In this document: positions 49,113 through 56,017 of the stretch, piece by piece
How positions within the stretch are numbered: position 1 is the first letter of the stretch
Layout: every line of letters starts with the position of its first letter
Assembly (NCBI GenBank): GCA_039817645.1
Contig: JBCBVM010000004.1
Coordinates: 45,013 to 109,012 of the forward strand
Source of the DNA: Pseudomonadota bacterium
GTDB taxonomy: Bacteria; Pseudomonadota; Alphaproteobacteria; Rhodobacterales; Rhodobacteraceae
Direction of reading: 5' to 3'
Length of the DNA: 64,000 nucleotides
Position numbers and translations under genes: made by a program
The notes under the pieces: model-generated
Database searches by the model: none
What the model was told of the DNA's origin: nothing
Seen by the model: the letters and a program-made list of their open reading frames with translations, nothing else

Positions 49113-49144
49113 AGAAAACAGCGCCCCGTGGGGCGCTGTTTTTG
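49113..49144. terminator. bidirectional intrinsic terminator between convergent DUF1150 and sat/cysC
   Basis: GAAAA-AACAGCGCCCC-GT-GGGGCGCTGTT-TTTT: a perfect 11-bp stem with an A-run on one side and a T-run on the other. Confidence 0.55.
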
Positions 49145-49162: not shown

Positions 49163-50878
49163 TCAGACCTGGCCAGAGATAAGGCCCATCCCCTCAAGTT
49201 TCAGCAGGACCTGCTGGGCGCAGTTGTCCACCTCAAACCCTTCGGTATCCACCACCAATTCGGCACTGGTCGGCGCCTCGTACGGGTCAGAGATGCCGGT
49301 GAATTCGGGGATCTTCCCCTCGCGGGCCAGCTTATACAGACCCTTCCGGTCCCGACGCTCACATTCCTCCAGCGATGTGGCCACATGCACCTCGACGAAG
49401 GCGCCATAGGCCTCGATCATCTCGCGGGCGGCACGGCGGGTAGCGGTGTAGGGCGCGATGGGCGCGCAAATGGCAATTCCGCCATTCTTGGTGATTTCGG
49501 ACGCCACATACCCGATCCGGCGGATGTTGATGTCCCGATGCTCCTTGGAGAAGGTCAGCTCCGACGACAGATGCTTGCGCACCACATCCCCATCCAGCAA
49601 CGTCACCGGGCGGCCCCCCATCTCCATCAGTTTGACCATGATGGCATTGGCGATGGTGGATTTGCCCGACCCGGACAGGCCGGTGAAGAACACGGTGAAG
49701 CCCTGCTGCGACCGGGGCGGCGACGTGCGGCGCAGTTCCTTCACCACTTCGGGGAAGCTGAACCATTCCGGGATTTCCAGCCCCTCCCGCAGACGGCGCC
49801 GCAATTCCGTGCCCGAGATGTTCAGGATGGTGACGTTGTCGCGGTCTTCGATGGCGTCATTGGGCTCATACTGCGCCCGCTCCTGCACATAGACCATGTG
49901 CTTGAAGTCCACCATTTCGATCCCGATCTCCGCCTGATGTTCCCGGAACAGGTCCTGGGCGTCATAGGGGCCATAGAAGTCCTCACCGGCGCTGTTCTTG
50001 CCGGGGCCCGCGTGATCGCGGCCGACGATCATGTGCGTGCAGCCGTGGTTGCGGCGGATGATGCCGTGCCACACAGCCTCCCGCGGGCCGGCCATGCGCA
50101 TGGCCAGGTTCAAAAGGCTCATGGTGGTGGTTGCCTGAGGATACTTGTCCAGCACGGCCTCATAGCACCGGACGCGCGTGAAGTGGTCCACATCACCCGG
50201 CTTGGTCATCCCCACAACGGGGTGGATCAGCAGGTTGGCCTGCGCCTCGCGCGCGGCGCGGAAGGTCAGTTCCTGATGGGCGCGGTGCAGCGGGTTGCGC
50301 GTCTGGAACGCCACAACGCGGCGCCAGCCCATCTTGCGGAAATAGGCGCGCAATTCGTTGGGCGTGTCCCGGCGGGCGCGGAAATCGTAATGGATCGGCT
50401 GCTGGATGCCAGTGATCGCGCCACCCAGATAGGTGTCCCCCGCCTGGTGGTGCAGATAGTTCACTGCCGGGTGGGCCAGATCGTCGGCGCCGTACACCAT
50501 CTCGGCCTCGCGGGCCTTGTTCGGTTGATACTTCGACGTCACCGACAAGATCGCCAGGATCACGCCTTCCTGGTCGCGCAGGGCGATGTCTTGGCCTTCT
50601 TCGACCTTGCCTGCAAACCCTTCGGACACGTCCAGTGTGATCGGCATGGGCCAAAGCGTTCCATCGGCCAGGCGCATATTCTCCACCACGCCTTCATAAT
50701 CCTGCTTGCCCAGGAACCCCTTGAGCGGCGCAAACCCGCCATTCATCAGCAGTTCCAGATCGCAAATCTGCCGGGGCGTCAGGTCCCAACTGGGCAGGTC
50801 CGCGGCCTCCACCTTCAGCTTCTGCGCACTGTCATAACTGACATAGAGTTCGGGGATCGGGGCGAGGTTGTTTTCCAT
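49163..50878 (-). CDS. sat: bifunctional sulfate adenylyltransferase / adenylyl-sulfate kinase
   Basis: ATP-sulfurylase motifs QTRNPLHRAHQEL and GRDHAGPG. C-terminal APS kinase P-loop GLSGSGKST. About 571 aa from the internal ATG (MENNLAPI). Confidence 0.9.
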   Translation of the reverse strand: MENNLAPIPELYVSYDSAQKLKVEAADLPSWDLTPRQICDLELLMNGGFAPLKGFLGKQDYEGVVENMRLADGTLWPMPITLDVSEGFAGKVEEGQDIALRDQEGVILAILSVTSKYQPNKAREAEMVYGADDLAHPAVNYLHHQAGDTYLGGAITGIQQPIHYDFRARRDTPNELRAYFRKMGWRRVVAFQTRNPLHRAHQELTFRAAREAQANLLIHPVVGMTKPGDVDHFTRVRCYEAVLDKYPQATTTMSLLNLAMRMAGPREAVWHGIIRRNHGCTHMIVGRDHAGPGKNSAGEDFYGPYDAQDLFREHQAEIGIEMVDFKHMVYVQERAQYEPNDAIEDRDNVTILNISGTELRRRLREGLEIPEWFSFPEVVKELRRTSPPRSQQGFTVFFTGLSGSGKSTIANAIMVKLMEMGGRPVTLLDGDVVRKHLSSELTFSKEHRDINIRRIGYVASEITKNGGIAICAPIAPYTATRRAAREMIEAYGAFVEVHVATSLEECERRDRKGLYKLAREGKIPEFTGISDPYEAPTSAELVVDTEGFEVDNCAQQVLLKLEGMGLISGQV

Positions 50879-51244
50879 AAGTCTTGTCCTGGTAGGAAGT
50901 GGGGTGAGGCCCGACGTGGACCCTGTGAGTTCAGCATGGAGCGCGTCATATTCCGCGAACTTGCGCCGGAGAAATGCGTCGGTCAGTCGGTTCTTCTCCG
51001 ACGCCCCGCGCGGGGTGAGAACATAGGCATAGCGCTGGCGCCGGTCCGGCCCCTTGCGCGCACTGATCTTGACCAGCCCGGCCTCTGCGGCCACGCGCAG
51101 TTGGGCGTTCAATCGTCCCAGTGACACGCCCAACGCCGTCGCAGTCGCGCGCTGCGTGGCCTCTGGCGCCAGATCAAGCTGGCGCAACAGACGGAAGAGG
51201 TCATCGTCCCCTTCGAAATCAGATTTTGCTGGTAGGGACAGCAT
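50879..51244 (-). CDS. MarR-family EPS-associated winged-helix regulator-like domain, in-frame and contiguous with sat/cysC (no intervening stop)
   Basis: LFRLLRQLDLAPEATQRATATALGVSLGRLNAQLRVAAEAGLVKISARKGPDRRQRYAYVLTPRGASEKNRLTDAFLRRKFAEYDALHAEL matches the EPS-associated MarR (EpsA-like) family. The ORF reads straight into MENN... of sat. Confidence 0.5.
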
Positions 51245-51257
51245 CACTGGCGACTCA

Positions 51258-51315
51258 AGTTTGTTCACAGATGAACGCTTATGCGAAAAAGTATGTTCAT
51301 GAAAGAACAAACTTT
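51258..51315. promoter_or_regulatory. AT-rich palindromic operator-like element upstream of the MarR-like/sat ORF
   Basis: 10-bp inverted repeat AAGTTTGTTC...GAACAAACTT, with nested GTTCA/TGAAC half-sites, in an unusually AT-rich stretch. Confidence 0.35.
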
Positions 51316-51406
51316 GCAGCATCGCAGAAATATGCCCAAGGCCCGGGTTACTCGGCCATGGTTGCGCGCTCAGGAAACCAAGACAGGACCGCGCCTTGCG
51401 TTCAAA

Positions 51407-51721
51407 TCAGAGATAGGGCGCGAAACAGGCCACTTCGTTCGGGTCCGGCGTCCCTTGGCCAGAGATCACGGCAAGCGCCGCCCTGGCCCGCGTATCTTCG
51501 GGTGTCCGCGCCAGCAGCGCTTCGACCGACCGCGCGTCATCGCGTCGGATGGCATCCACCAAAGGTCCGTCTCGCGTGGGGTCCGGGCTAGGGCAGACAC
51601 CCGAGCCAACCCGTTCGGCCCGCGCGACAGAGGCATTGCCCGAAGGCGCGGGCGCGCCCCCGCCACAGGCAGACATGCCCATCAACCACAGGCCAAATAT
51701 CGTCGCGCGCAAAATGCCCAT
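51407..51721 (-). CDS. hypothetical small lipoprotein
   Basis: Lipobox LWLMGMSACGG at the internal ATG. Located 29 nt downstream of trxB. Confidence 0.45.
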   Translation of the reverse strand: MGILRATIFGLWLMGMSACGGGAPAPSGNASVARAERVGSGVCPSPDPTRDGPLVDAIRRDDARSVEALLARTPEDTRARAALAVISGQGTPDPNEVACFAPYL

Positions 51722-51749
51722 GGTCTCGCCTCCCGTGGTGTTGGCGTCC

Positions 51750-53460
<1,711 letters not shown>

Positions 53461-54345: not shown

Positions 54346-55275
54346 TTAGACCTTCAGGGCCGGGATGATCTGCTTTTTCCGGCTCATGATGCCGGGCAAC
54401 ACGACGCTGTCCCCGGTCACGCTGGCGCCGAAACTCTTCTCTGCCACGGTCTTCACAAGGTCATTGGGCACCAGCAGCGTGGCTTCCTCGTTCAGGATAT
54501 CCACCACGAACAGCAGGACCTGTTCCACCCCGTCCTCGGACGCCACTGGCCCCATGCTTTCCATGATCGACGCCTTACGGTCCAGCACCACATCCGGCGC
54601 CGTCGTCTCCAGGACGGACACGCGGAACTTGGTCCCGTCCACCGCGTATTCCTTGCTGTCCATCCGCAGCAACTCCGCATCCGAGAACGCGCTGACGTCG
54701 GACTTCGCCGCAAACATCTCAGCGGCCAACTCCGGGATGGAGACGCCGAGGTCCTTCGCCAATCGCTCCGCCACGGCGCGGTCGTGGTCCGTGGTCGTGG
54801 GCGACCGGAACTCCAACGTGTCCGACAGGATGCAGGTCAGCATAGCGCCCTTGATCCCCTCTGGCGCGGTTTCCAACGCACCGCCCATCAGGTCGGCCAT
54901 GATCGTGGCGGTGCAGGCCAAGGGGCGCACCGTGATCTCGATGGGACCAGACGTCTCCAACCCGCCGACCAGCTTGTGGTGGTCGATGATCTGCCGGATG
55001 TCCGCATCGTTGATGCCCTCCGGCAACTCGGCCGGGTTGTTCGTGTCCACGATGACCACAGGTTGACCGGCATTCACGCCCGCAATGATCTGCGGCGTGT
55101 CCAAGCCCCAACGCTTCAACATATAGGCGGCCTCGGTATTCGGCGCCCCCAACAAGGCGGGCGCGGCGTCCATCCCCGCGACAGAACTGAGGTACCAGGC
55201 CCAAGCGATCGGGCTGCCGGTCGAATCGGTGTCAGGCGATTTGTGGCCAAAAACGAGGGTGGTCATCTGCGTCAT
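54346..55275 (-). CDS. ppaC: manganese-dependent inorganic pyrophosphatase (family II, DHH-DHHA2)
   Basis: FGHKSPDTDSTGS...VVIVDTNN...DHH; DHH-family motifs. Confidence 0.85.
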   Translation of the reverse strand: MTQMTTLVFGHKSPDTDSTGSPIAWAWYLSSVAGMDAAPALLGAPNTEAAYMLKRWGLDTPQIIAGVNAGQPVVIVDTNNPAELPEGINDADIRQIIDHHKLVGGLETSGPIEITVRPLACTATIMADLMGGALETAPEGIKGAMLTCILSDTLEFRSPTTTDHDRAVAERLAKDLGVSIPELAAEMFAAKSDVSAFSDAELLRMDSKEYAVDGTKFRVSVLETTAPDVVLDRKASIMESMGPVASEDGVEQVLLFVVDILNEEATLLVPNDLVKTVAEKSFGASVTGDSVVLPGIMSRKKQIIPALKV

Positions 55276-55339
55276 CCATGCTGAAAATGCGTCGGGCGCG
55301 CCCTTACCGCGGCGCGTCCCGGATGTCACGAGGGGTTCC

Positions 55340-56017
55340 ATGCGCGAAACCGATCTCTACGCCCCAGTGAAAACCTTCCTGGAGGGGCAAGGCTATGCGG
55401 TGAAGGGGGAAATCGGCAAAGCCGACGTTGTGGCCCTGCGCGGCGAAGATCCGCCGGTGATCGTGGAGTTGAAGACCGCCGTCAGCCTGACCCTGTTCCA
55501 CCAATGCATCGATCGCCAAAGCATCACGCCCCATGTCTATCTGGCCGTCCCCGACGTGCAGGGGCGCCGGGGATACGCCGCCCTGAAGGCCACCCTCAAA
55601 ATGGCCCGGCGGCTGGGGCTTGGCGTTCTGACGGTGCGCCTGTCGGACGGTCTGGTCACCGTCCATTGCGACCCCGGCCCGTTCCAGCCCCGCCTGTTGA
55701 AACGCCCGAGGGAGCGTTTGTTGCGCGAATTCGCCGCCCGCCGCGGGGACCCCGCCCAAGGGGGCGCCACCCGCGACGGTCTGATGACGGCCTACCGGCA
55801 GGACGCCATGGCCCTGGCCACGCACCTGGCCCGACACGGCCCCTGCAAAGGCAGCGTTGCCCGCGATGCCACGGGCGTGCAACGGGCCACGCAGATCATG
55901 CGCGACAACCATTACGGGTGGTTCGAACGGGTGGACACCGGCATCTACGGCCTTTCCGACCAGGGCCGCGCGGCCTTGCCCCCCAAATCAGTTTCCGCCG
56001 CCCCCGAACCCCGGTAA
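55340..56017 (+). CDS. DUF2161 family protein
   Basis: MRETDLYAPVKTFLEGQGYAVKGEIGKADVVAL; a widely conserved alphaproteobacterial hypothetical. Confidence 0.6.
   Translation: MRETDLYAPVKTFLEGQGYAVKGEIGKADVVALRGEDPPVIVELKTAVSLTLFHQCIDRQSITPHVYLAVPDVQGRRGYAALKATLKMARRLGLGVLTVRLSDGLVTVHCDPGPFQPRLLKRPRERLLREFAARRGDPAQGGATRDGLMTAYRQDAMALATHLARHGPCKGSVARDATGVQRATQIMRDNHYGWFERVDTGIYGLSDQGRAALPPKSVSAAPEPR

What the first reader, a model, noticed from the sequence alone, without database searches (positions are those of the whole stretch)
49163..51322. EPS-associated MarR-like winged-helix domain reads in-frame into sat/cysC, with an AT-rich palindromic operator upstream
The 719-codon ORF contains an N-terminal ~120-aa segment matching the small MarR-family exopolysaccharide-associated regulator (LGVSLGRLNAQLRVAAEAGLVKISARKGPDRRQRYAYVLTPRG...FLRRKFAEYDALHAEL). 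With no stop codon, it runs into the ATG (MENN...) of a complete ~571-aa ATP-sulfurylase/APS-kinase. Three readings are possible: a genuine regulator-enzyme fusion, a lost stop codon, or independent internal initiation of sat via a weak AGGA SD. The region just 5' (51258-51315) is strikingly AT-rich in a GC-rich genome. It carries a 10-bp inverted repeat (AAGTTTGTTC/GAACAAACTT) with nested GTTCA/TGAAC half-sites, a plausible autoregulatory operator. This would link PAPS supply (sulfation) to EPS regulation.
Basis: seen in the sequence. Interest (0 to 1): 0.55.

Follow-up and report, generated by a model that had tools for sequence, protein, structure and literature searches.

The report
Sulfate-activating enzyme carrying its own repressor domain
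One gene, conserved across marine Rhodobacterales, appears to make an abundant sulfate-activating enzyme and a rarer longer form with a DNA-binding head, which probably shuts off the gene's own promoter; no paper found here describes this arrangement.

Summary
ORF 49163..51322(-) joins a MarR_EPS-type winged helix (TIGR04176, 91 bits) in frame to a complete Sat/CysC (NF004040, 1050 bits).

It is not a lost stop. All 78 Rhodobacterales species with enough DNA have the same uninterrupted ORF. dN/dS of the winged-helix part is 0.13.

The true start is M27 (ATG 51244), giving 693 aa, so the AT-rich palindrome lies upstream of the coding sequence.

An internal start is also conserved. Codon 149 is ATG in 64 loci and GTG in 9. 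The Arg four codons upstream is AGG in 73/73 loci, against 6 of 2807 other Arg codons. This gives an invariant AGGA 8 nt before the start. Codon bias is much stronger downstream of it. The gene therefore most likely makes a rare long form (helix-Sat-CysC) and an abundant short enzyme (571 aa).

The palindrome is a conserved GTTCA-N4-TGAAC box, 20-33 nt before the long-form ATG in 80/80 loci and nowhere else in about 670 kb. About a third of loci, including this window, have a second box about 32 bp upstream. Stand-alone MarR_EPS genes also carry GTTC/GAAC palindromes upstream.

Best reading: a BirA-like, self-repressing enzyme-regulator. The EPS link is not supported.

The parts
49163..51244 (-). 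Long isoform CDS (693 aa plus stop): winged helix, linker, PUA_2, ATP sulfurylase, APS kinase. Start ATG 51244-51242.
   Evidence: Orthologue N-termini align to M27. The ORF is uninterrupted in 78/78 species. Domains.
49163..50878 (-). Short isoform CDS (571 aa plus stop): canonical Sat/CysC from the internal ATG 50878-50876.
   Evidence: Codon 149 is ATG in 64 loci and GTG in 9. NF004040 profile positions 4-571 map to ORF residues 147-716. Codon bias is much stronger downstream of this point.
50887..50890 (-). Internal Shine-Dalgarno AGGA, 8 nt upstream of the internal ATG.
   Evidence: The Arg codon here is AGG in 73/73 loci, against 6 of 2807 Arg codons elsewhere in the gene. It is the only synonymous site with zero relative entropy in the first 200 aligned columns.
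50924..51220 (-). MarR_EPS-type winged-helix domain (three helices and a two-strand wing) followed by a long C-terminal helix. ORF residues about 35-133.
   Evidence: TIGR04176 at 91.3 bits. AlphaFold model pLDDT 83, pTM 0.72. The best PDB fold matches are MarR-family regulators and Sso10a-2/PH1061-type small winged-helix proteins. dN/dS 0.13.
50879..50923 (-). Linker between the winged-helix domain and the enzyme (consensus TGTxSGLxPLKxRTxL); contains the internal SD.
   Evidence: pLDDT below 50 in the full-length model. dN/dS 0.24. Same length in all 73 loci printed; two residues shorter in the protein P0024.
51263..51276 (.). Proximal operator-like box GTTCATCTGTGAAC (GTTCA-N4-TGAAC), 19-32 nt upstream of the long-isoform ATG.
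   Evidence: An exact box is present at the same position in 78/80 loci. The other two have GTTCG-N4-TGAAC. No other occurrence in those loci. Extended consensus ATGyGTTCA-N4-TGAACAyA.
51295..51308 (.). Distal second box GTTCTTTCATGAAC, 32 bp upstream of the proximal box.
   Evidence: A second box, usually at 32 bp (range 26-32), is present in about one third of the loci listed. The two boxes with their flanks form the 20-nt inverted repeat 51257-51276 / 51295-51314.
51251..51256 (-). Conserved GAGTCG, 6 nt before the long-isoform ATG; a weak candidate ribosome-binding site.
   Evidence: Conserved columns in the box-anchored alignment of 73 loci. Predicted anti-SD pairing is weaker than at the internal site: -2.3 against -3.8 kcal/mol.
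51245..51322 (-). Mechanical 5' extension of the ORF (26 codons); most likely non-coding promoter and 5'-UTR DNA.
   Evidence: Not aligned in 17 of 19 orthologues; two other long gene calls share only a short similar stretch that coincides with the box DNA. Contains the operator boxes.
49115..49142 (-). Intrinsic terminator hairpin (12-bp stem, then a U-run) 21 nt after the stop codon; the gene ends its transcript.
   Evidence: RNA fold -25.7 kcal/mol, z = -3.1. Sequence.

Best explanation
This is one gene with two nested products and its own operator.

(1) Shown by comparative sequence: a stand-alone-type MarR_EPS winged-helix regulator is permanently fused, in frame, to the N-terminus of the bifunctional ATP sulfurylase/APS kinase in marine Rhodobacterales. 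The long product starts at ATG 51244 and is 693 aa.

(2) Strongly inferred: ribosomes also initiate at the conserved internal AGGA-N8-ATG/GTG (50890 / 50878). This gives the canonical 571-aa enzyme without the DNA-binding head. The codon-bias step at this point indicates that the short form carries most of the translation and that the long form is a minor species.

(3) Inferred: the winged helix of the long form binds, as a dimer, the invariant GTTCA-N4-TGAAC box that lies 20-33 nt upstream of its own start codon, where it may overlap the promoter. In about a third of species, including this one, there is a second box three helical turns upstream. Binding would repress transcription of the gene, which is classic MarR-type autoregulation.

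(4) Speculative: the DNA-binding head is tethered by a flexible linker to an enzyme whose closest solved relative (P. chrysogenum ATP sulfurylase), from my own knowledge of the literature, is a hexamer allosterically controlled by PAPS. Long subunits could therefore sit in mixed oligomers, and DNA binding could respond to APS/PAPS/ATP occupancy. That would be feedback control of sulfate activation, analogous to BirA with biotinyl-AMP.
For: Fusion is conserved:
- The top 120 homologues are 678-703 aa, and most have a precomputed HTH_24 hit ahead of the Sat/CysC domains.
- 78 of 78 species loci have an uninterrupted ORF of more than 650 aa.
- Many residues are invariant in the winged helix, and the AELTG junction is conserved.
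- dN/dS is 0.13 for the winged helix, 0.24 for the linker and 0.09 for the enzyme, with synonymous sites near saturation.

Internal start:
- The start-position codon is ATG in 64 loci and GTG in 9. Val is never encoded by another codon there.
- AGG is used in 73/73 loci at the Arg four codons upstream, against 0.2% of Arg codons elsewhere.
- The internal SD pairs better with the anti-SD than the upstream one in 66/68 loci.
- GC3 is 0.676 in the N-terminal part and 0.734 in the enzyme part, lower in 63/66 species. CGG is 24% against 6%, GGG 24% against 7%, CTG 34% against 64%, TTC 53% against 80%.

Operator:
- The box is found once per locus at a fixed position in 80/80 loci, with no other copy in about 670 kb.
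- The arms are invariant and the centre is variable.
- Second-box spacing is mostly 32 bp.
- Stand-alone MarR_EPS genes have GTTC-N5/6/7-GAAC within 250 nt upstream in 30/62 loci, against 9 such sites in 230 kb elsewhere. L001 has GTTCAAAATTGAAC at -70.

Fold and enzyme:
- The model is a MarR-like winged helix plus a long C-terminal helix (pLDDT 83), and the nearest PDB folds are DNA-bound MarR regulators.
- The linker is predicted disordered.
- The kinase P-loop GLSGSGKST and the LDGD motif are intact, unlike in the P. chrysogenum homologue.

Transcript unit:
- The gene has its own terminator.
- Distance to trxB varies from 20 to more than 3000 nt while the box stays with the gene.
- In R. 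pomeroyi the orthologue changes only about 2-fold under conditions where cysH and cysJI drop 10-30-fold. This is consistent with separate control (PMC9769926).
Against: - There is no direct evidence here for either protein product, for the transcription start, or for DNA binding.
- The internal SD is only moderate: -3.8 kcal/mol, within the top 14% of in-gene background positions. The case rests on conservation, not on strength.
- The stand-alone relatives do not carry the same box. Strict GTTC-N6-GAAC is upstream in only about 3 of 62 loci. Their palindromes differ in spacing and their recognition helices differ, so the family-level argument is suggestive only.
- Those stand-alone loci are related to one another, so the counts are not independent.
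- No second target of the box was found, but only 64 kb plus 8-kb flanks could be searched.
- The ligand-response step has no sequence evidence at all.
- The full-length structure model was poor (pLDDT 60), so nothing can be said about how the head docks on the enzyme.
Confidence: 0.6

Rival explanations
1. Lost stop codon, frameshift or assembly error in this strain joins two normally separate genes: a regulator and sat/cysC.
For: None found. Only short fragments of 80-278 aa appear as 'separate' proteins in the representative search.
Against: 78/78 species have the same in-frame ORF. The top 120 homologues are 678-703 aa. The five short hits looked up are singletons; four sit on contigs of 549-1696 nt and the fifth has no contig on record, so they are fragments.
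Confidence: 0.01
2. The fusion is genuine, but the operator is bound by a different, unlinked transcription factor, such as a global sulfur or redox regulator. The fused winged helix would then act elsewhere, or would no longer bind DNA and would serve in oligomerisation or partner binding.
For: No binding was tested. The stand-alone relatives' palindromes have a different spacing. Recognition-helix residues differ between fused and stand-alone members. HTH_24 and MarR_2 score below the Pfam thresholds.
Against: The box co-occurs with the fused gene in 80/80 loci and occurs nowhere else in the flanks. It stays with the gene when the neighbours change. GTTC/GAAC half-sites recur upstream of family members. 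The recognition helix and the wing are among the most conserved parts of the domain. Self-adjacent palindromes are the norm for MarR-type regulators (general knowledge).
Confidence: 0.22
3. There is a single 693-aa product only. The conserved AGGA and ATG/GTG are kept for another reason, such as a translational pause at an SD-like rare codon that helps the two parts fold, or an amino-acid constraint.
For: SD strength is only moderate. The linker residues R-T and M could have structural roles.
Against: An amino-acid constraint cannot explain exclusive use of AGG (0.2% usage elsewhere). It also cannot explain why the only alternative to Met is Val encoded solely by GTG. The step in codon bias exactly at this point in 63/66 species argues for different translation levels on either side. 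The internal start coincides with the N-terminus of the canonical unfused enzyme family.
Confidence: 0.1
4. The palindrome works as an RNA hairpin in the 5' UTR (translational control or stability), not as a DNA operator.
For: In the window the two boxes can pair into a long hairpin: -25.1 kcal/mol, z = -2.7.
Against: Two thirds of species have only one box, so the long hairpin is not conserved. The arms are invariant with no compensatory changes, while the 4-nt centre varies freely. That pattern fits a dimeric protein site. There was no Rfam match.
Confidence: 0.05
5. One reading: the module couples PAPS supply for sulfation to exopolysaccharide regulation.
For: The domain's nearest family is named EPS-associated. 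Stand-alone members head nucleotide-sugar/polysaccharide operons. The APS kinase motifs are intact, so PAPS can be made.
Against: No EPS or sulfotransferase genes flank the gene here. The conserved neighbour is trxB. The only conserved box is at the gene's own promoter.
Confidence: 0.07

Closest known systems
BirA (biotin protein ligase / bio operon repressor), with NadR and PutA: bifunctional enzyme-repressors or 'trigger enzymes'
   Same: An N-terminal (winged-)helix DNA-binding domain is covalently fused to a nucleotide-activating metabolic enzyme. A palindromic operator lies at a promoter of the same pathway. The expected logic is feedback through the enzyme's own ligand state. (This comparison rests on general knowledge.)
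   Different: The enzyme is Sat/CysC and the DNA-binding domain is MarR_EPS-type. The candidate operator is at the gene's own promoter only. A conserved internal start additionally makes a head-less enzyme, which BirA, NadR and PutA are not known to do. No ligand dependence has been shown.
TIGR04176 MarR family EPS-associated transcriptional regulators (stand-alone, about 105-150 aa)
   Same: 40-50% identity over the whole stand-alone protein, including the C-terminal helix. The same predicted fold. GTTC/GAAC palindromes lie upstream of the gene.
   Different: Here the domain is fused to an enzyme and is not in an EPS or nucleotide-sugar locus. The recognition helix differs (SLGRLNAQLR against SLGGLNYCLKAL). 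The box spacing is N6 rather than mostly N5 or N7.
Bifunctional ATP sulfurylase/APS kinase: NF004040; A. aeolicus 2GKS; P. chrysogenum ATP sulfurylase 1I2D/1M8P
   Same: The short isoform covers the whole family profile. It matches 1I2D at E = 8e-202 and 2GKS at E = 6e-168 over nearly its full length.
   Different: It carries an extra 122-aa N-terminal regulator module. Unlike the fungal enzyme, the kinase P-loop and the LDGD motif are intact.
Nested bacterial isoforms from in-frame internal initiation (ClpB long/short, IF2 alpha/beta, CheA long/short)
   Same: One ORF has an upstream start and a conserved internal SD plus start. The short form lacks an N-terminal functional domain. (General knowledge.)
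   Different: Here the domain that is dropped is a DNA-binding regulator, so the two isoforms would be a regulator-enzyme and a plain enzyme. The products have not been observed.

Membership tests
NF004040 bifunctional sulfate adenylyltransferase/adenylylsulfate kinase | HMM score above the curated cutoff (669 bits) with full-length coverage | tested here: met
   1050.2 bits; profile positions 4-571 of 572 map to ORF residues 147-716.
NF004040 bifunctional sulfate adenylyltransferase/adenylylsulfate kinase | PUA-like, ATP-sulfurylase and APS-kinase domains with an intact kinase P-loop | tested here: met
   PF14306, PF01747 and PF01583 all far above threshold. GLSGSGKST and LLDGD match the active A. 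aeolicus enzyme, not the degenerate fungal domain. Enzyme activity itself was not tested.
TIGR04176 MarR_EPS regulator | HMM score at or above the curated cutoff of 88 bits | tested here: inconclusive
   91.3 bits for the N-terminal 149 aa alone and 87.4 bits within the whole ORF. It sits on the threshold.
TIGR04176 MarR_EPS regulator | Small stand-alone protein associated with EPS or polysaccharide loci | tested here: not met
   Fused to a 571-aa enzyme. Neighbours are trxB, lrp, hsp20, DUF1150 and purEK. Stand-alone members head nucleotide-sugar operons.
MarR family (Pfam PF01047 / PF12802) | Pfam gathering threshold | tested here: not met
   MarR_2 scores 14.1 bits against 27. HTH_24 scores 21.3 against 21.9. 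PF01047 is not reported.
MarR family (structural) | Winged-helix fold resembling solved MarR regulators | tested here: met
   Model pLDDT 83. The top Foldseek hits are HcaR, SP03579, ST1710, MepR and MarR (TM 0.5-0.6, probability 1.0), with Sso10a-2/1ub9 giving the best target coverage. It lacks the N-terminal dimerisation helices of canonical ~145-aa MarRs.
Bifunctional enzyme-repressor (trigger enzyme, BirA-like) | DNA-binding domain and enzyme in one polypeptide, conserved | tested here: met
   78/78 uninterrupted ORFs; dN/dS 0.13 on the winged helix.
Bifunctional enzyme-repressor (trigger enzyme, BirA-like) | Specific operator bound by the protein | tested here: inconclusive
   A conserved candidate operator is present in 80/80 loci. 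Binding cannot be tested with these tools.
Bifunctional enzyme-repressor (trigger enzyme, BirA-like) | DNA binding controlled by the enzyme's substrate or product | not testable with these tools
   Needs EMSA or in-vivo reporters with and without APS, PAPS, ATP and sulfate.
Nested isoforms by internal translation initiation | Conserved in-frame start codon with an SD at proper spacing | tested here: met
   ATG/GTG in 73/73 loci and AGGA in 73/73, with an 8-nt spacer.
Nested isoforms by internal translation initiation | Two protein products observed | not testable with these tools
   The only indirect support is the codon-bias step. No relevant proteomic data were found.

The most novel reading that the evidence does not exclude
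The long isoform assembles with short isoforms into mixed Sat/CysC oligomers. The APS/PAPS-dependent conformational state of the enzyme then sets whether two tethered winged helices can clamp the GTTCA-N4-TGAAC operator. The enzyme that activates sulfate would thus directly sense its own products and set its own dosage. This would be a BirA-like trigger enzyme for sulfur assimilation, with an internal start site fixing the regulator-to-enzyme ratio, across an ecologically dominant marine clade.
Probability: 0.3. Interest if true: 0.75.

Novelty: new variant of a known kind. Interest (0 to 1): 0.62.

Why it matters
Roseobacter-group bacteria are central to marine sulfur cycling, yet control of their first sulfate-assimilation step is undescribed. 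My literature searches found the gene mentioned only as 'sulfate adenylyltransferase'.

If the model holds, it adds a new enzyme class to the short list of enzyme-repressor fusions. It also gives an experimentally tractable DNA motif for the uncharacterised MarR_EPS family.

It would be a clear natural case in which a conserved internal start site splits one ORF into a regulator-enzyme and a plain enzyme.

It also matters for annotation. The 691-aa models hide a second, probably dominant, 571-aa product.

Tried and rejected
- Literature: six full-text searches found no description of the fusion, of TIGR04176 function or of the isoforms. The R. litoralis proteomics hit was a plasmid CysNC-type protein and is not relevant.
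- Exact box in stand-alone relatives: strict GTTC-N6-GAAC is upstream in only 2-3 of about 62-70 loci. I therefore dropped the claim that the family shares the identical operator. Only the half-site similarity remains.
- Regulon search: no further box was found in the 64-kb window or in the 80 flanks.
- Internal promoter or RNA element inside the winged-helix coding region: the synonymous-site scan shows no extended constraint, only the AGG codon.
- Rfam: no match.
- Sigma-70 consensus scan: no promoter called. The -35/-10 assignment is left open.
- Full-length AlphaFold model: too poor to use for domain docking (pLDDT 60).
- First anti-SD background calculation was faulty and was redone.
It was redone with 10 sequences.
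- Short 'separate' winged-helix proteins in the representative library proved to be fragments.
Full report
**The observation**

The 719-codon ORF at 49163..51322 on the minus strand is real. NCBIfam places a complete bifunctional sulfate adenylyltransferase/adenylylsulfate kinase (NF004040, 1050 bits, profile positions 4-571 of 572) at ORF residues 147-716. It places a TIGR04176 'MarR family EPS-associated regulator' match at residues 40-132. That match scores 87.4 bits in the whole ORF and 91.3 bits for the N-terminal piece alone, against a cutoff of 88.

Pfam adds PUA_2, ATP-sulfurylase and APS_kinase. It also gives an HTH_24 hit just under threshold.

The AT-rich stretch has GC 0.35 at 51260-51319. 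The inverted repeat has arms at 51257-51276 and 51295-51314, and the exact 10-nt arm pair occurred in none of 100 shuffles. Within it are two GTTC-N6-GAAC boxes 32 bp apart.

**Is the fusion real?**

Yes. The 120 best database homologues are all 678-703 aa, are named as roseobacter-group Sat/CysC, and most carry a precomputed HTH_24 hit in front. The closest is Jannaschia sp. M317 at 91% identity.

A scan of one genome per species returned 80 Rhodobacterales loci. All 78 with enough sequence have the uninterrupted ORF.

The orthologues begin at the window's M27, so the true start is ATG 51244 and the long product is 693 aa. The first 26 codons of the mechanical ORF are upstream DNA.

In that upstream region and throughout the winged-helix coding part, synonymous sites are essentially saturated. 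Even so, the protein is conserved. dN/dS is 0.13 for the winged helix, 0.24 for the linker and 0.09 for the enzyme. The N-terminal domain is therefore translated and selected as protein. The 'lost stop' reading is excluded. The few short 'separate' proteins in the representative library are singletons; four are on contigs under 1.7 kb and one has no contig on record.

**The internal start**

Across 73 loci the codon at window residue 149 is ATG in 64 and GTG in 9. Where the residue is Val, it is always GTG.

The invariant Arg four codons upstream is AGG in 73/73 loci. AGG accounts for only 6 of 2807 other Arg codons in the same genes. Together with the next base this gives an invariant AGGA with an 8-nt spacer to the start codon (window 50890-50887 and 50878-50876).

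In a per-column synonymous-entropy scan, this Arg is the only position with zero entropy in the first 200 aligned columns, and its neighbours are unconstrained.

The internal start coincides with the N-terminus of the canonical unfused enzyme family.

Codon usage changes at this point. In 63 of 66 species, GC3 is lower in the winged-helix part (0.676 against 0.734). Disfavoured codons are three to four times more frequent there: CGG 24% against 6%, and GGG 24% against 7%. Preferred codons are less frequent: CTG 34% against 64%, and TTC 53% against 80%. This is the pattern expected if the enzyme part is translated far more than the head.

The internal SD pairs better with the anti-SD than the upstream GAGTCG does (-3.8 against -2.3 kcal/mol). 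Both are only moderate.

I conclude that the gene most likely yields a minor long isoform and a major 571-aa short isoform. The products themselves were not observed.

**The operator**

Anchoring on the conserved FRLLRQ motif, every locus has a GTTC-N6-GAAC box about 81 nt upstream of it. That places the box 20-33 nt before the long-isoform ATG.

The strict pattern GTTCA-N4-TGAAC occurs in 78 of the 80 Rhodobacterales loci, almost always exactly once and always at that position. It occurs nowhere else in about 670 kb. The two exceptions have GTTCG-N4-TGAAC there.

The extended consensus is ATGyGTTCAcgcGTGAACAcActttGAGTCG, followed 4-8 nt later by ATG.

About a third of the species, including this window, have a second box upstream, usually at 32 bp, or three helical turns.

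The arms never vary and the central four bases vary freely. There is no compensatory change, no Rfam hit, and the long two-box hairpin is absent from most species. This is the signature of a dimeric protein site on DNA, not of an RNA structure.

The box stays with the gene while the distance to the upstream trxB ranges from 20 nt to more than 3 kb. A strong terminator follows the stop codon. The gene is therefore its own transcription unit.

**Who binds the box?**

This was not testable directly. Three indirect lines point to the fused winged helix itself.

First, co-occurrence is strict.

Second, the domain is predicted with confidence (pLDDT 83) as a three-helix, two-strand winged helix followed by a 30-residue helix. 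Its nearest solved folds are MarR regulators, several of them solved on DNA. Sso10a-2/PH1061-type small winged-helix proteins give the best target coverage. No close sequence relative has been solved. The linker to the enzyme is predicted disordered.

Third, stand-alone family members (40-50% identical, 100-170 aa) head nucleotide-sugar/polysaccharide operons. In 80 metagenomic loci they carry GTTC-N5/6/7-GAAC palindromes within 250 nt upstream in 30 of 62 usable cases. Only 9 such sites occur in 230 kb elsewhere. One locus, L001, has GTTCAAAATTGAAC at -70.

This third line is weaker than it looks. Those loci are related to one another. The exact N6 box is rare among them. Their recognition helices differ from the fused form.

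**Context**

There are no EPS or sulfotransferase genes near the gene. The neighbours are a non-conserved lipoprotein-like ORF, trxB, a divergent lrp, hsp20, DUF1150, DUF465 and purEK. trxB lies upstream on the same strand in 76/80 loci, and lrp is present in 70/80.

The enzyme part is closest to P. chrysogenum ATP sulfurylase (E = 8e-202) and to the A. aeolicus bifunctional enzyme. Unlike the fungal protein, it keeps the kinase P-loop and LDGD motifs, so it should make PAPS.

In R. pomeroyi a transposon insertion in the orthologue SPO0900 slows growth (PMC7426152). Its transcript changes only about 2-fold when cysH and cysJI fall 10-30-fold (PMC9769926). This is compatible with separate, homeostatic control.

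**Mechanism proposed**

Two steps rest on comparative evidence: a conserved regulator-enzyme fusion, and a conserved internal start.

Three steps are inferred: the long form is a minor species; it binds the box as a dimer through its winged helix and C-terminal helix; and it represses its own promoter.

One step is speculative. Because the head is tethered to an oligomeric, nucleotide-binding enzyme, operator binding may depend on APS/PAPS/ATP occupancy. That would give product feedback, as in BirA.

**Comparison with known systems and novelty**

The arrangement works like the bifunctional enzyme-repressors BirA, NadR and PutA, and like nested-isoform genes such as clpB and infB. It combines both features with a different enzyme and a different DNA-binding family.

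It is a member of NF004040. It sits on the threshold of TIGR04176 but fails that family's stand-alone, EPS-context definition. It is MarR-like by fold but not by Pfam score.

The fused ORFs are already in databases under a plain enzyme name. I found no paper that notes the DNA-binding head, the internal start or the operator. I rate it a new variant of a known kind, interest about 0.6.

Noticed in passing
window 51750-52973 (-), 52903-53460 (+); loci L003-L082: Thioredoxin reductase (trxB) lies upstream of the fused sat/cysC gene on the same strand in 76/80 Rhodobacterales loci. An Lrp/AsnC regulator on the opposite strand is present in 70/80. The trxB-to-box distance varies from 20 nt to more than 3 kb. 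This may be a functional link, since thioredoxin reduces APS/PAPS reductase, or it may be plain synteny.
   Followed up: partly
window 54346-55341 (-): A DHH/DHHA2 protein sits 3 kb upstream of the pyrophosphate-releasing ATP sulfurylase. It looks like a family II inorganic pyrophosphatase, which is my reading of the domain pair and not something tested. It was not found within the 4-kb flanks of the other 80 loci.
   Followed up: partly
window 51407-51802 (-): A 131-aa ORF lies between trxB and the operator. It has no Pfam match and no homologue in the 80 related loci. From an internal Met it reads like a lipoprotein signal peptide (MGILRATIFGLWLMGMSAC). It is either lineage-specific or spurious.
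   Followed up: partly
loci L083-L162 (stand-alone MarR_EPS genes), about -120 to -135 from the start codon: A conserved motif TGTTCAAGTTCTTACAGAACTT lies upstream of the stand-alone genes, with a further conserved block (ACGGCAnGGCGGTAGCGTGCC) closer to the gene. These are candidate operator or promoter elements, or possibly an RNA element, for the uncharacterised stand-alone family.
   Followed up: partly
L140, 819 nt upstream of the MarR_EPS gene: A strict GTTCATAATTGAAC box lies far upstream of a stand-alone family member, possibly in front of another gene of that locus. Not examined.
   Followed up: no
R. pomeroyi orthologue SPO0900 (literature): A 187-nt antisense RNA (cis36) is reported opposite SPO0900 (PMC4809877). 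Its position relative to the winged-helix part or the internal start is unknown.
   Followed up: no
window 49115-49142 (-): A clear 12-bp hairpin plus U-run terminator lies after the sat/cysC stop codon. The consensus terminator scan did not report it.
   Followed up: yes
P0008: One 691-aa fused protein, 86% identical to the window's, is labelled Maritalea mobilis. From memory that genus is not in Rhodobacterales. This could be a mislabelled or contaminated record, or horizontal transfer. Not checked.
   Followed up: no
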